Assembly: GCA_018399375.1 (NCBI GenBank)
Contig: JAGYOV010000001.1
Location: 1-27,537 of the forward strand
Origin: Dehalococcoidia bacterium
GTDB taxonomy: Bacteria > Chloroflexota > Dehalococcoidia > GIF9 > AB-539-J10
Length of the DNA: 27,537 bases
Reading direction: 5' to 3'
In this document: positions 14,587-19,609 of the stretch, one piece after another
How positions within the stretch are numbered: the first letter of the stretch is position 1
Layout: the number at the start of each line of letters is the position of its first letter
Notes under the pieces: model-generated
Databases searched by the model: none
The model's input: the letters and a program-made list of their open reading frames with translations, nothing else
Told to the model about the DNA's origin: nothing
Made by a program: the position numbers and the translations under genes

Positions 14587-14595
14587 TGCTAAAAT
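14587..14595 (+). promoter_or_regulatory. Putative extended -10 promoter (TGCTAAAAT) for the polX cluster
   Basis: TG-n-TAAAAT at 14587-14595, followed by SD GAGGTGA and the ATG at 14619. Confidence 0.5.
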
Positions 14596-14618
14596 GCTGA
14601 TCTTGTACGAGGTGATCA

Positions 14619-16346
14619 ATGCCTGTACATAATACAGAGATTGCAGAAATTTTTAATGAATATGCCGATCTCCTCGAGATTGAGGGTACCAACCAGTATC
14701 GGGTGCGCGCATATCGAAATGCAGCCCGGAATATCTCCGTCTTCTCCCGTAGTATTGCAGAAATGGCAAACCAGAAAGAAGACCTTTCCCGCATTCCAGG
14801 ACTGGGCGAAGATCTCACAGTAAAAGTATTCGACATCGTGAATACTGGCAAGCTTCTTCAGCTAGAAAAACTTAAGGAGAGGCTACCCGCAGGGCTACTC
14901 GATATTATCAGACTGCCAGGGCTGGGGCCCAAGCGCGCCGGGGTGCTATATTCGAAGTTAGGAGTTACCAGCATCGAGCAACTGGAAGCAGCAGCCAAAC
15001 AACACAAGGTGCGAGAGCTACCAGGATTTTCTGTCAAGATGGAGGAGAATATCCTGGAAGACATAAAGCGCAGAGGCAAAGCAGGAACCAGCGAAAAGCG
15101 CTATAAGCTTTTCACCGTTGAAGAGATAGGCAAGGATTTACTGTCATATCTGAAGAAGATAAACGGCGTAAAGCGCGTGGCAATTGCCGGCAGCTACAGG
15201 AGAAGGAAAGAAACGGTAGGGGACCTGGACATACTGGTGACTCATGAAAAGCAAGCCGATGTCATGCAGCAGTTCACAGAATATGAAGACGTAGAACGCA
15301 TCGTTTCCAGAGGCGAAACCCGCTCCACAGTGATACTGCGCTCCGGCATACAGATAGACCTGCGATCTGTAGCTGAAGACAGCTATGGTGCAGCCATGCA
15401 TTACTTCACTGGTTCCAAAGCTCATAACATTGCCATTCGCAAGAAGGGGGTGAATAAAGGCCTCAAGATAAATGAATACGGCGTCTTCCAAGGCGACGAG
15501 TTAATCACTGGAAGAACTGAGGAGGAAATTTACGCGAGGGTAGACCTTCCCTATATAGAACCGGAGCTGCGCGAAAACAATGGAGAAATTGAAGCAGCGC
15601 AGGAAGGCAAGCTACCCAAGCTGATTTCGCTACAAGATATTAATGGGGATCTCCATTCCCATACCAGTGCGACTGACGGACGTTCGACCCTAGAAGAAAT
15701 GGCCAGAGCTGCCAAAGAGAAAGGATATCAATATCTGGCCATCACCGACCACTCCAAGCACGTAACTGTAGCCCACGGCCTTGATGCTGAACGCCTAGCC
15801 CAGCAAATCGACGAGATAGAGCGACTCAACGACAGGCTGGATGGAATCGTCCTGCTAAAAGGTATCGAGGTGGATATCCTAGAAGACGGTTCACTGGATC
15901 TACCTCATGACATACTGAAAAGGCTGGATCTGGTCGTCTGTGCAGTACACTACAAGTTCAATCTACCAGCCGACAAGCAAACGGAGCGCATTATCAGGGG
16001 CATAGATAACTCCTATTTTACCATCTTGGCTCATCCCACCGGGAGGATAATTGGCGAACGCGAACCATATCAACTGGATATGGAACGCCTGATGAAGGCA
16101 GCGAGGGAGACCGGTTGCATACTTGAGCTCAATGCTCAGCCCAGCCGGCTTGATCTTACAGAGGTCTATGCCAGGATGGCCAAAGAGATGAACGTCATGG
16201 TTGCCATTTCCACGGATTCTCACAGCACCAACGAGTTTGACTCCATGCGCTTCGGCATTTACCAGGCACGCCGAGGGTGGCTGGAACCAGAAGACGTTTT
16301 AAACACCAGAAGCAGGAAAGAATTGCAAAAGTTGCTCAAGAAATGA
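14619..16346 (+). CDS. polX: DNA polymerase X family with C-terminal PHP (3'-5' exonuclease) domain
   Basis: 8-kDa domain (N.EIA..F...AD.LE..G.N.YR.RAY..AA), HhH motifs (PGLG, PGLGPK), AGSYRR.KETVGDLD, third Asp in QIDLR, YFTGSK.HN, NEYG. PHP motifs DLHSHT, ITDHS, EVDI, AHP, ELNA, STDSH are all intact. Confidence 0.95.
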   Translation: MPVHNTEIAEIFNEYADLLEIEGTNQYRVRAYRNAARNISVFSRSIAEMANQKEDLSRIPGLGEDLTVKVFDIVNTGKLLQLEKLKERLPAGLLDIIRLPGLGPKRAGVLYSKLGVTSIEQLEAAAKQHKVRELPGFSVKMEENILEDIKRRGKAGTSEKRYKLFTVEEIGKDLLSYLKKINGVKRVAIAGSYRRRKETVGDLDILVTHEKQADVMQQFTEYEDVERIVSRGETRSTVILRSGIQIDLRSVAEDSYGAAMHYFTGSKAHNIAIRKKGVNKGLKINEYGVFQGDELITGRTEEEIYARVDLPYIEPELRENNGEIEAAQEGKLPKLISLQDINGDLHSHTSATDGRSTLEEMARAAKEKGYQYLAITDHSKHVTVAHGLDAERLAQQIDEIERLNDRLDGIVLLKGIEVDILEDGSLDLPHDILKRLDLVVCAVHYKFNLPADKQTERIIRGIDNSYFTILAHPTGRIIGEREPYQLDMERLMKAARETGCILELNAQPSRLDLTEVYARMAKEMNVMVAISTDSHSTNEFDSMRFGIYQARRGWLEPEDVLNTRSRKELQKLLKK

Positions 16347-16358
16347 CGAGAGGTAACC

Positions 16359-18386: not shown

Positions 18387-18437
18387 AGGCAAGAAAGGTC
18401 TGCGCAGTTCCGAAGCATTGCGCAACGAAGGGACAAA

Positions 18438-19175
18438 ATGAGCAGAGCGAAATCAATAAACATAGGCACTTCAGGATGGCATTACCAGCATTGGAAAGGC
18501 CCCTTCTATCCCCAGGACCTGCCCAATGAAGATCTTCTCGAAAATTACACGAAATACTTTCAAACGGTTGAGATTAACAACACATTCTACCAGTTGCCTG
18601 ATAGCAAGACTATCGCCTTGTGGCGAGACTCAGTGCCGGACAACTTCACGTTCTCCGTAAAAGCCAGCCGTTATATAACTCATATGAAGAAGCTAAATTC
18701 TCCCTACGACTCCATATACACCTTTATCGATAGAGTGAGCGTGCTGGATAGAAAACTAGGTCCCATCCTGTTCCAGCTTCCACCAAGGTGGCATGTCAAC
18801 CCATCACGGCTAGAGGAATTTCTTAACGCTTTACCGAGGGATCATCGCTATGCTTTTGAGTTGCGAGATCCAACCTGGTTCATCAATCGAACTGAAGAGA
18901 TACTGACTCAGAAAGGAGCCGCCTTTTGTATATACGACTTTGAGAAGAGGCAATCGCCCTCATCAGTAACTGCTGATTTCATATATGTGAGGCTACACGG
19001 CCCGGATGGAGCCTACATAGGGAAATACAATGACCGGGCCCTTTCATCCTGGGCGGAAGTATTTTCAGGCTGGGCAGAGGAAGGGAAAGAGATATTTTGC
19101 TATTTTGATAATGATGAGAAAGGCTACGCTGTTCAGAACGCTCTGAAATTGCAGGAACTGCTGATGGAAAAATAA
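18438..19175 (+). CDS. DUF72 (YecE/YunF-like) TIM-barrel protein
   Basis: IGTSGW.Y..W.G.FYP, F.TVEIN.TFY..P, F.FSVKA...ITH, KLGPILFQLPP, AFELR..TW, YVRLHG, YFDND..G.A..NA. Confidence 0.9.
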   Translation: MSRAKSINIGTSGWHYQHWKGPFYPQDLPNEDLLENYTKYFQTVEINNTFYQLPDSKTIALWRDSVPDNFTFSVKASRYITHMKKLNSPYDSIYTFIDRVSVLDRKLGPILFQLPPRWHVNPSRLEEFLNALPRDHRYAFELRDPTWFINRTEEILTQKGAAFCIYDFEKRQSPSSVTADFIYVRLHGPDGAYIGKYNDRALSSWAEVFSGWAEEGKEIFCYFDNDEKGYAVQNALKLQELLMEK

Positions 19176-19204
19176 ATAGCTACCAACCTGAAAGTAAGAG
19201 AAAG

Positions 19205-19609
19205 ATGCCAGTGTTGCCGGACGTGGAAGTATTCAGAAAATACCTGGATAGTACTGCCATGAATCAGTCCATTGAAAAGGCCGAGTTGCTCGCCAAGAAT
19301 ACTCTTGATGACCTATCCCCCGCAGGAGTTGCATAGAGTGCAGGAGTATAAATTTGAGTCTACCGCTCGTCATGGCAAGTATCTTCTGGTAAAAATAAGC
19401 GATAACGGGTGGATAATATTTCACTTCGGCATGACTAGATATCTCAATTATTTCAAAGAGAGAGACCTTTCTCCTGAGCATACCCGTGCCCTTTTCAGTT
19501 TTGTCAATCGCGAAAAGAGCGGCAGATGTCCTGTATGCGAGTCTGATCTGAAAAGCGAAAAATCTCGGGGCGCATTGCCTACTTTTGCCCGAACAGCCAG
19601 AACACATAG
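19205..19609 (+). pseudogene. fpg: Degraded Fpg/Nei-family DNA glycosylase/AP lyase
   Basis: ATG 19205 gives MPVLPDVEVFRKYLD (Fpg PELPxVE-like), stopping at 19334-19336. The +1 frame continues PQEL..FESTARHGKYLL...HFGMT and then jumps to RCPVC. A further shift gives ISGRIAYFCPNSQ (zinc-finger end). The H2TH domain is absent. Confidence 0.85.

What the first reader, a model, noticed from the sequence alone, without database searches (positions are those of the whole stretch)
14587..19609. Self-contained DNA repair cassette polX - NAD-ligase - DUF72 - fpg/nei, implying a repair role for DUF72
Seen: four co-oriented genes with short gaps (12, 51 and 29 nt) behind one extended -10. Established: Fpg/Nei excises damaged bases and nicks AP sites; bacterial PolX-PHP fills gaps and trims 3' ends; LigA seals nicks. 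Together these are the steps of base-excision repair. DUF72 is an uncharacterised TIM-barrel family. Inference: DUF72 is the missing end-processing or nuclease component of a dedicated, possibly stress-linked BER/gap-repair module. It uses an NAD-dependent ligase, not the ATP-dependent LigD/LigC of NHEJ-type clusters, and no Ku is in the window. A usp stress gene lies just upstream on the same strand. The ligA may be a second, specialised copy. This is my best candidate for an undescribed system here.
Basis: partly seen in the sequence, partly recalled or inferred. Interest (0 to 1): 0.75.

Follow-up and report, generated by a model that had tools for sequence, protein, structure and literature searches.

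The report
PolX-ligase-DUF72 DNA-repair gene island
A small uncultured Dehalococcoidia bacterium carries an acquired DNA-repair gene set (gap-filling polymerase, nick-sealing ligase, the unknown-function DUF72 enzyme, and a now-dead base-removing enzyme). The set recurs in shuffled order in many phyla, which ties DUF72 to DNA repair, and here it has replaced the cell's original ligase gene.

Summary
Partly confirmed. polX-PHP (14619-16346), NAD-ligase (16359-18386) and DUF72 (18438-19175) are intact, co-oriented and 12 and 51 nt apart. The fourth gene, fpg (19205-19609), is a dead remnant: two frameshifts, the H2TH domain deleted, the catalytic Glu3 changed to Val and a zinc-finger Cys lost.

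The repair link holds up. In 26 of the 80 closest DUF72 loci, across at least five phylum labels, DUF72 sits in a tight co-directional chain with polX, ligA and/or fpg, in 12 different gene orders. No other family recurs more than 3 times among 58 other neighbours.

The ligase belongs to a strongly supported cross-phylum clade of cluster-linked LigA paralogs. Eight of 10 cluster-bearing genomes also keep a second LigA. In this genome the cluster lies in a ~10.6 kb island between thyX and recN that a same-genus genome lacks. The ancestral ligA and polX have been cleanly deleted from their syntenic sites, so the repair-type ligase is the only ligase found.

DUF72 is a confident TIM barrel, closest to the xylose-isomerase/EndoIV-like superfamily, but it is not a UvdE or EndoIV member by sequence. 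Its chemistry remains inferred.

This scan has found the same cluster before on other DNA. Published work has proposed a DUF72 repair role only in silico.

The parts
13430..24070 (.). Lineage-specific island of about 10.6 kb between thyX and recN. It holds usp, polX, ligA, DUF72, the fpg remnant, GNAT, CN-hydrolase and GH38.
   Evidence: The same-genus genome G003 has the identical gene order from MPGS to thyX and then recN and glycerate kinase, with only 494 nt between thyX and recN. G002 shares the thyX-usp-polX junction at 98% identity. The boundaries are approximate. No tRNA gene is in the window.
13871..14350 (+). Universal stress protein gene (usp)
   Evidence: PF00582, E 6e-24. usp also lies directly upstream of polX in related Dehalococcoidia loci, but not in other phyla.
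14567..14595 (+). Promoter-like site with a TG-extended -10
   Evidence: Consensus scan, 9 of 12 matches plus TG. This is a pattern match only, and such matches are at chance frequency in this region.
14619..16346 (+). polX: family X DNA polymerase with a C-terminal PHP domain, of the cluster type
   Evidence: Pfam finds HHH_8, HHH_5, the pol-beta palm and thumb, and PHP. NCBIfam PolX equivalog scores 554.6 bits against a 426 cutoff. It is 54-78% identical to PolX of cluster loci, but only 39-46% to PolX of 40 relatives from genus to order.
16359..18386 (+). ligA: full-length NAD-dependent DNA ligase of the cluster-linked paralog clade. It is the only ligase found in this genome.
   Evidence: Pfam finds domain Ia, adenylation, OB, Zn, HhH and BRCT. 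NCBIfam LigA scores 830 bits against 369. The clade has SH-aLRT 100 on a 0.78 stem. The AU test rejects grouping with the vertical LigAs. The genome has a single adenylation-domain gene and no ATP ligase. The ancestral ligA is deleted at C175.
18438..19175 (+). DUF72 (YecE/TM1631 family) TIM-barrel protein, intact
   Evidence: PF01904, E 1e-69. The AlphaFold model has pLDDT 96.5. It matches 1VPQ at Z 28.6 and TM 0.88. All family-conserved residues are present: E45, N47, K75, R78, H82, Q113, E141, R143, R185, H187, N225.
19205..19609 (+). fpg/nei pseudogene remnant of the cluster-type Fpg
   Evidence: PF01149 fragments in two frames. Comparison with the intact 262-aa orthologue of L005 shows two frameshifts, loss of residues ~102-231, Glu3 to Val, and Cys to Ser in the zinc finger. 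A sibling strain has deleted the remnant.
19701..23992 (.). Other island cargo: GNAT acetyltransferase (19701-20246, -), CN-hydrolase (20598-21305, +) and GH38 alpha-mannosidase (21302-23992, -)
   Evidence: Pfam. These are absent from the syntenic place in G003. Nothing links them to the repair genes.

Best explanation
The window holds a horizontally spreading excision-repair module. It consists of a PolX-PHP polymerase, a distinct paralog of NAD-dependent ligase LigA, a DUF72 enzyme and an Fpg-like glycosylase, and it lies in a ~10.6 kb island between thyX and recN.

Proposed working of the intact module, found in close relatives:
1. The Fpg-like glycosylase/lyase removes a damaged base and cuts the strand.
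2. DUF72 processes the DNA backbone at the lesion. It would either incise the AP site or clean the end to give a usable 3'-OH. DUF72 is a TIM barrel with a conserved phosphate-binding pocket and is distantly allied to the EndoIV / UvdE / xylose-isomerase-like barrels.
3. PolX fills the gap, and its PHP domain helps trim 3' ends.
4. The LigA paralog seals the nick.

In this genome the module has taken over housekeeping. The ancestral ligA and polX were deleted, so the module's ligase must also join Okazaki fragments. The module's own fpg became redundant with the vertical fpg and decayed.

Shown: gene identities, the pseudogene, the recurrent shuffled linkage, the separate LigA clade, the island, and the deletion of the ancestral ligA and polX.
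Inferred: co-transcription, the order of the steps, and any catalytic activity of DUF72.
For: - Gene identities.
- Same four-gene order with an intact 262-aa fpg in the closest relatives: (L005, L009, L012).
- 26 of 80 nearest DUF72 loci (53-71% identical) form co-directional chains with polX, ligA or fpg, in 12 architectures, under labels including Chloroflexota, Thermodesulfobacteriota, Bacillota, Thermotogota and Actinomycetota. The figure is 15 of 55 when at least 2.5 kb is available on both sides.
- Gaps are often 3-30 nt.
- Among the 85 co-directional immediate neighbours found, Fpg occurs 12 times, PolX 9 and LigA 4. No other family exceeds 3 of the 58 remaining.
- LigA tree: 11 cluster ligases from four or more phyla form an SH-aLRT 100 clade, separate from the vertical Dehalococcoidales clade. 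That vertical clade contains the second ligA of cluster-bearing genome G046. AU test p = 1e-36.
- Two ligA genes in 8 of 10, two polX in 4 of 5, and two DUF72 in 4 of 5 cluster-bearing genomes.
- SerRS identity falls off gradually with distance (86, 77, about 70, about 66%). PolX, LigA and DUF72 are flat at 39-46% to all relatives.
- Island shown by synteny with G003.
- Ancestral ligA and polX precisely missing on C175 and C191.
- DUF72: confident TIM barrel. After the DUF72 structures, the best matches are xylose-isomerase-like barrels, including EndoIV at Z 12.6-13.6 and UVDE at TM 0.61.
- The nearly invariant residues N47, K75, Q113, R143, R185 and F50/Y51 correspond, by my count on the alignment, to the phosphate-binding and two-tyrosine residues modelled for TM1631 in PMC3828134.
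- One representative protein fuses DUF72 to the MGMT DNA-binding domain.
- PMC11791011 reports DUF72 enrichment near polB2.
Against: - No experiment shows any activity for DUF72.
- The profile comparison with UvdE is not significant (probability 1.6%).
- Pfam finds no AP_endonuc_2 or UvdE signal in DUF72.
- The fold matches cannot separate nucleases from sugar isomerases.
- The solved DUF72 structures carry no metal, according to PMC3828134.
- Fpg plus PolX-PHP plus LigA would already make a complete pathway, from what is known of B. subtilis and T. thermophilus PolX. The genome also has an Xth-like gene. DUF72 is therefore not an obviously missing step.
- 54 of the 80 nearest DUF72 loci show no such linkage within the sequence held.
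- The vertical DUF72 genes of 40 relatives are not next to polX, ligA or fpg.
- Second gene copies in MAGs could in part come from contamination.
- Co-transcription was not tested.
Confidence: 0.6

Rival explanations
1. Alternative excision repair rather than BER. DUF72 works like UvdE or like EndoIV in nucleotide-incision mode. It nicks directly 5' of bulky or oxidised lesions, and PolX and LigA then resynthesise and seal. Fpg is a frequent but dispensable fellow traveller.
For: Many loci have DUF72-polX(-ligA) without fpg. In this window fpg has decayed while DUF72 stays intact. UVDE is among the best non-DUF72 Foldseek matches. PMC3828134 argues for a wider groove that suits two unpaired nucleotides. 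The vertical DUF72 of 9 of 19 relatives lies tail-to-tail with uvrC.
Against: Fpg is the single most frequent immediate neighbour, 12 cases. There is no significant profile similarity to UvdE. The conserved UvdE metal ligands have no clear DUF72 counterparts. The uvrC pairing is convergent and confined to one order, so it may be plain synteny.
Confidence: 0.15
2. DUF72 is tied to the repair genes by co-regulation only. It acts on a small phosphorylated molecule such as a nucleotide or sugar phosphate, or serves as a non-catalytic DNA-binding accessory. It is not a nuclease or phosphoesterase acting on DNA.
For: The nearest folds outside the family are mostly sugar epimerases and isomerases. 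PMC3828134 also found similarity to nucleotide-kinase phosphate sites. No metal is seen in the crystal structures. The pathway is complete on paper without DUF72.
Against: A metabolic enzyme would not be expected to keep tight, often near-overlapping adjacency specifically to polX, fpg and ligA through many rearrangements across phyla. It would also not be expected to fuse to an MGMT DNA-binding domain.
Confidence: 0.15
3. This is an ordinary housekeeping neighbourhood. ligA is just the essential replicative ligase and the adjacency to polX and DUF72 carries no functional meaning.
For: In this genome it is the only ligase gene and must serve replication. It passes the LigA equivalog model. None of the 40 GTDB relatives has ligA next to a close (about 42% identical) DUF72 homologue.
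Against: The ligase belongs to a separate cross-phylum clade that travels with polX and DUF72 and is usually a second copy. The cluster sits in an island missing from a same-genus genome. The ancestral ligA site is empty.
Confidence: 0.05

Closest known systems
PolX-dependent base excision repair of Bacillus subtilis, Thermus thermophilus and Deinococcus radiodurans (from established knowledge, not re-read here)
   Same: It uses a family X polymerase with a PHP domain that fills short gaps and cleans 3' ends. It works with Fpg/MutM-type glycosylases and NAD-dependent LigA.
   Different: In those organisms the genes are scattered, the ligase is the single housekeeping LigA, and no DUF72 partner is described. 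Here the genes form a mobile cluster with its own LigA and PolX paralogs plus DUF72.
Mycobacterial Prim-PolC / LigC excision-repair pair (as summarised in PMC7470946)
   Same: It is a dedicated polymerase-ligase gene pair that fills and seals short gaps left by BER enzymes, and it is extra to the replicative ligase.
   Different: It uses an ATP-dependent ligase and a primase-polymerase. It relies on XthA/EndoIV for end processing and has no DUF72. Here the ligase is NAD-dependent and the polymerase is PolX.
Endonuclease IV (Nfo) and UV damage endonuclease (UvdE), TIM-barrel DNA repair nucleases
   Same: They share the TIM-barrel fold. EndoIV family members reach Z 12.2-13.6 and SacUVDE reaches TM 0.56-0.61 against the DUF72 model. 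PMC3828134 and PMC11791011 propose an analogous role for DUF72.
   Different: There is no sequence-level membership. The trinuclear metal site is not evident in DUF72. Sugar isomerases of the same superfamily score equally well.
TM1631 (PDB 1VPQ) and EF0366 (1VPY, 1ZTV), solved DUF72 proteins of unknown function
   Same: They belong to the same family (E 3e-18, Z 28.6, 27-28% identity) and share the same conserved pocket residues.
   Different: No link to polX, ligA or fpg has been reported for them. The window protein belongs to a subfamily 53-71% identical across phyla that carries this linkage.
E. coli LigB, a second NAD-dependent ligase (from established knowledge)
   Same: It is a precedent for an accessory NAD-dependent ligase paralog with a presumed repair role.
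   Different: LigB lacks the BRCT domain and part of the zinc finger and is confined to some proteobacteria. The cluster ligase is full length, scoring 830 bits on the LigA model against 215 on the LigB model, and it can be the sole ligase.

Membership tests
Bacterial PolX (family X polymerase with PHP) | Pol-beta-like 8-kDa/HhH, fingers, palm and thumb domains followed by a PHP domain, scoring over the curated equivalog cutoff | tested here: met
   Pfam HHH_8, HHH_5, DNA_pol_B_palm, DNA_pol_B_thumb and PHP. NF006375 scores 554.6 bits against a 426 cutoff. The GDLD motif and the PHP His/Asp motifs are visible in the translation.
NAD-dependent DNA ligase LigA | Domain Ia, an adenylation domain with KxDG, OB fold, Zn finger, HhH and BRCT, scoring over the curated cutoff | tested here: met
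   All domains are found. NF005932 scores 829.9 bits against 369, and TIGR00575 scores 771.5 against 444. The KFDG motif is in the translation.
Vertically inherited (housekeeping) LigA of the Dehalococcoidales | Groups with the LigAs of same-genus, same-family and same-order genomes, and occupies the ancestral syntenic site | tested here: not met
   It is 41-45% identical to all 39 relatives' LigAs. It falls in a separate SH-aLRT 100 clade. The AU test gives p = 1e-36. The ancestral site on C175 is empty.
DUF72 (PF01904; YecE/TM1631) | Full-length match to the family model and the TM1631-like TIM-barrel fold | tested here: met
   PF01904, E 1e-69, covering profile positions 1-217 of 217. 1VPQ matches at Z 28.6 and rmsd 1.9 over 236 residues.
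UV damage endonuclease UvdE (PF03851) | Sequence or profile homology to UvdE, with its conserved His/Asp/Glu metal ligands | tested here: not met
   No Pfam hit at E <= 0.01. hhalign of 81 DUF72 against 11 UvdE sequences gives probability 1.6%, with only a 44-column local match. The structural match is at generic TIM-barrel level, TM 0.56-0.61.
Endonuclease IV / AP_endonuc_2 (PF01261) | Family-model match and the trinuclear metal site | tested here: inconclusive
   No Pfam hit. The fold is similar at Z 12.2-13.6, but sugar epimerases of the same superfamily score equal or better. The conserved DUF72 residues include only two His. The metal site could not be examined in 3D with these tools.
Fpg/Nei glycosylase (functional gene) | N-terminal Pro2-Glu3 catalytic pair, an H2TH domain and an intact C-terminal zinc finger in one open frame | tested here: not met
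   The window copy has Glu3 changed to Val, two frameshifts, residues ~102-231 absent, and a zinc-finger Cys changed to Ser. Orthologues in L005, L009 and L012 are intact.
Operon (single transcription unit) | Same strand, short gaps, no internal terminator, one transcript | not testable with these tools
   Same strand, gaps of 12, 51 and 29 nt, and no + strand terminator-like site. No RNA run holds the sequence.

The most novel reading that the evidence does not exclude
The polX / ligA-paralog / DUF72 / fpg-like set is a self-sufficient, horizontally mobile excision-repair module. In it DUF72 is a new class of DNA-backbone-processing enzyme: a TIM barrel with a phosphate pocket and no EndoIV-type metal cluster. 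The module can fully displace a cell's ancestral replicative ligase, as it has in this streamlined genome.
Probability: 0.3. Interest if true: 0.8.

Novelty: new variant of a known kind. Interest (0 to 1): 0.62.

Why it matters
DUF72 (YecE/TM1631) is a very large family, with 15,667 representative clusters at E <= 0.001. Crystal structures have existed since 2004, yet no function has been demonstrated in the literature I could search.

The recurrent, order-shuffled linkage to PolX, a dedicated LigA paralog and an Fpg-like glycosylase names concrete substrates and partner enzymes for a bench test: Fpg products, AP sites and 1-nt gaps.

The finding also reveals a full-length accessory NAD-dependent ligase clade that I did not find described in the searched literature.

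Finally, it gives a clean natural case in which a repair-type ligase has replaced the ancestral replicative ligase. This bears on how interchangeable replication and repair ligases are.

Tried and rejected
- RNA evidence: no RNA holder is listed for the stretch, so co-transcription is untested.
- Complex prediction of PolX with DUF72: no answer, score 0.00. This is not evidence either way.
- hhalign of DUF72 against UvdE: not significant.
- Foldseek against the PDB: beyond the DUF72 structures it gives a mixed bag of TIM barrels and cannot assign chemistry.
- Promoter and terminator scan: matches are at chance level.
- Search for integration marks: no tRNA gene in the window and no obvious shared repeat at the island ends in a three-way alignment. 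The mechanism of insertion is unknown.
- Pfam tally of 58 other co-directional neighbours of DUF72: no further recurrent partner.
- Literature searches for a described polX-ligA-DUF72-fpg cluster or a yecE DNA-damage phenotype found nothing relevant.
- Whether a vertical DUF72 was also lost could not be settled. Its syntenic place falls in a contig break between the end of C186 and the start of C153.
- I first suspected that contig C1 was mis-binned, because LigA and DUF72 are only about 43% identical to same-genus genomes. Graded SerRS and RecN identities and perfect flanking synteny with G003 rejected this.
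Full report
WHAT IS THERE

The window is contig C1 of a 1.08 Mb, 230-contig, 89% complete MAG. On the + strand lie:
- usp, 13871-14350;
- polX with a PHP domain, 14619-16346;
- a full-length NAD-dependent ligase, 16359-18386;
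- a DUF72 gene, 18438-19175.

The gaps are 12 and 51 nt.

That stretch is a ruin. It reads MPVLPDVE... for 43 codons to a TAG at 19334 and then continues in the next frame. Against the intact 262-residue orthologue of locus L005 it lacks residues ~102-231, the H2TH domain. A second frameshift falls inside the zinc finger, whose last Cys has become Ser. The catalytic Glu3 is Val.

Contigs of a ~98% identical sibling strain in two metagenome runs join 19210 directly to 19591, so there the remnant is gone. The two runs have near-identical figures and may be one data set. An intact fpg, only 31% identical to the cluster type, lies on contig C168.

A TG-extended -10-like site precedes polX, and no + strand terminator-like site interrupts the cluster. 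These are consensus matches at chance frequency.

IS THE ARRANGEMENT MEANINGFUL?

The 40 GTDB relatives, from genus to order, each have one LigA, one PolX (35 of 41 genomes searched, the window's own included), one main DUF72 and one Fpg. All are only 39-46% identical to the window's proteins. They are never adjacent, except for one genome (G030) in which a distant, about 34% identical DUF72 lies next to ligA.

The closest DUF72 homologues in metagenomes are about 70% identical. The best-documented one sits in usp-polX-ligA-DUF72-fpg, with a 262-aa intact fpg.

A scan of one genome per GTDB species returned 80 loci with DUF72 at 53-71% identity. tblastn with the window's PolX and LigA and L005's Fpg shows 26 of these loci with DUF72 in a co-directional chain (gaps under 600 nt) with one to three of those genes. 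There are 12 architectures:
- polX-ligA-DUF72-fpg;
- polX-DUF72-fpg;
- DUF72-fpg;
- fpg-DUF72;
- DUF72-polX-ligA, with or without fpg;
- DUF72-polX-fpg;
- DUF72-polX;
- polX-DUF72;
- DUF72-ligA;
- and truncated versions of these.

The linked loci carry labels that include Chloroflexota, Thermodesulfobacteriota, Bacillota, Thermotogota and Actinomycetota. Among loci with at least 2.5 kb on both sides, the count is 15 of 55.

Among the 85 co-directional immediate neighbours found, Fpg occurs 12 times, PolX 9 and LigA 4. In a Pfam tally of the other 58, no family occurs more than three times. Linkage that survives this much rearrangement across phyla is strong evidence of functional coupling.

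THE LIGASE IS A PARALOG, AND THE WHOLE SET IS AN EXTRA SET

Ligases in these clusters are 56-72% identical to the window's. All other LigAs tested are 38-47% identical.

In a maximum-likelihood tree, 11 cluster ligases from at least four phyla form an SH-aLRT 100 clade on a long stem. They are apart from a 100-supported clade of the relatives' LigAs. That vertical clade also contains the second LigA of G046, a Dehalococcoidia genome that carries the cluster too. Forcing the window's LigA into the vertical clade costs 229.6 log-likelihood units (AU p = 1e-36). The group was defined after the tree was seen.

Copy numbers in cluster-bearing genomes:
- two ligA genes in 8 of 10;
- two polX in 4 of 5;
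- two DUF72 in 4 of 5.

WHAT HAPPENED IN THIS GENOME

The contig itself is vertical. SerRS is 86% and 77% identical to the two complete same-genus genomes, about 70% within the family and about 66% within the order.

G003 has exactly the window's gene order from the mannosyl-3-phosphoglycerate synthase gene through thyX, and then recN and glycerate kinase. Only 494 nt lie between thyX and recN there. The window has about 10.6 kb at that point, holding usp, polX, ligA, DUF72, the fpg remnant, GNAT, a CN-hydrolase and a GH38 mannosidase. G002, another same-genus MAG, shares the thyX-usp-polX junction at 98% identity.

Only cluster-type LigA, PolX and DUF72 are found in the MAG, and no ATP-dependent ligase. 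This is not an assembly gap for two of the three genes:
- ligA: in G003 and G001 the vertical ligA lies between two genes whose orthologues are contiguous on the window genome's contig C175. About 165 nt lie between the aligned flanks and there is no LigA remnant.
- polX: the vertical polX of G001, plus one neighbouring gene, is likewise missing between orthologues 94 nt apart on C191.
- DUF72: the vertical DUF72 site falls in a contig break and is unresolved.

So the acquired set displaced the ancestral ligA and polX. For fpg the redundancy was resolved the other way, and the acquired copy decayed.

That result is met here, but for an unexpected reason: the sole copy is the repair-cluster paralog.

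WHAT IS DUF72?

The AlphaFold model is confident (pLDDT 96.5). It matches TM1631 (1VPQ) at Z 28.6 and TM 0.88.

The next tier, at Z 12-14.5, consists almost entirely of xylose-isomerase-like TIM barrels. It includes M. tuberculosis and E. coli endonuclease IV and the ASFV AP endonuclease, but equally sugar epimerases and MbnB. Foldseek also lists SacUVDE at TM 0.56-0.61.

Sequence tests for membership fail. There is no Pfam hit other than PF01904, and hhalign against a UvdE profile gives 1.6% probability.

In an 81-sequence alignment, E45 is invariant. N47, F50, Y51, K75, R78, H82, Q113, E141, R143, R185, H187 and N225 are at least 90% conserved. By my count on the alignment to 1VPQ, N47, K75, Q113, R143, R185 and F50/Y51 are the residues that Konc et al. 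(PMC3828134) modelled as the DNA-phosphate site and the 'two-tyrosine' wedge of TM1631.

Other independent hints:
- One representative protein fuses DUF72 to the MGMT DNA-binding domain.
- PMC11791011 reports DUF72 enrichment near polB2.
- In 9 of 19 relatives examined the vertical DUF72 lies tail-to-tail with uvrC. This pairing is convergent and confined to one order, so it is weak evidence.

Points against a simple 'missing nuclease' reading:
- The genome has an Xth-like gene.
- PolX-PHP enzymes are known to clean 3' ends.
- No metal is seen in the DUF72 crystal structures, according to PMC3828134.

MECHANISM I COMMIT TO

This is an excision-repair module. The Fpg-like enzyme, or in this genome the vertical Fpg, creates a strand break or gap. 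DUF72 processes the backbone, by AP-site incision or end cleaning. PolX fills the gap and the LigA paralog seals it.

I put about 0.75 on 'DUF72 works in DNA repair with these partners' and about 0.45 on 'it is a nuclease or phosphoesterase acting on DNA'. A UvdE-style direct-incision role and a non-nuclease role are the live rivals.

NOVELTY AND PRIOR NOTES

In the searchable literature, a repair role for DUF72 is proposed only in silico (PMC3828134, PMC4939058, PMC11791011). I found no paper on a polX-ligA-DUF72-fpg cluster or on a full-length accessory LigA clade.

This scan has met the same cluster before on other DNA, for example e1-1388979, e1-2278856, e1-4670382 and e1-1153359. My results agree with those notes.

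New in this report:
- the pseudogene state of fpg in this window;
- the island;
- the LigA clade test;
- the demonstrated deletion of the ancestral ligA and polX.

Noticed in passing
window 200-1405, 21302-23992, 25940-27184: Genes for a possible mannosylglycerate cycle are spread over the window: mannosyl-3-phosphoglycerate synthase (PF09488, E 3e-152), a GH38 alpha-mannosidase inside the island (possibly a mannosylglycerate hydrolase), and a DUF4147/MOFRL glycerate kinase.
   Followed up: no
L124, L125, L127, L129, L131, L132, L136, L139, L141 (relatives G026, G021, G003, G005, G020, G008, G013, G029, G001): The vertical-type DUF72 of these Dehalococcoidales lies immediately tail-to-tail (convergent) with uvrC. 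RuvC, CinA, Ham1 and NUDIX genes are neighbours in others. This may be plain synteny or another repair link.
   Followed up: partly
P0237 (361 aa): A representative protein fuses a DUF72 domain (residues 30-248) to the 6-O-methylguanine-DNA methyltransferase DNA-binding domain (PF01035, residues 276-350). I did not check whether this is a true fusion or a gene-calling read-through.
   Followed up: no
G030:C5:396-2668 (minus strand): In one relative, a distant DUF72 (34% identical to the window's) lies directly upstream of the vertical ligA. This is the only such adjacency among the 40 relatives.
   Followed up: no
window 16361 and 19210-19591: A sibling strain in metagenome runs X1 and X2 has a 24-nt insertion right after the ligA start codon and a 380-nt deletion that removes the fpg remnant. 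The two runs give near-identical figures and may be one data set.
   Followed up: partly
G000:C186, last ~110 nt: The contig that should lead into the vertical DUF72 site ends in sequence that looks to me like the reverse complement of a 5S rRNA gene. This would explain the assembly break there. I did not check it with an RNA model.
   Followed up: no
window 11281-12657: Two consecutive ORFs both hit the ArsP_1 permease model. The first is fused to a dinitrogenase FeMo-cofactor-binding (PF02579) domain. The same pair is conserved in G003 and G001.
   Followed up: no
P0011 locus (JGI contig, no DNA held) and L006: A stand-alone LigD phosphoesterase (PF13298) gene lies about 6 kb downstream of the intact cluster in the closest relative. 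An Exo_endo_phos gene lies about 5.5 kb downstream of a solitary cluster-type DUF72 in L006.
   Followed up: no
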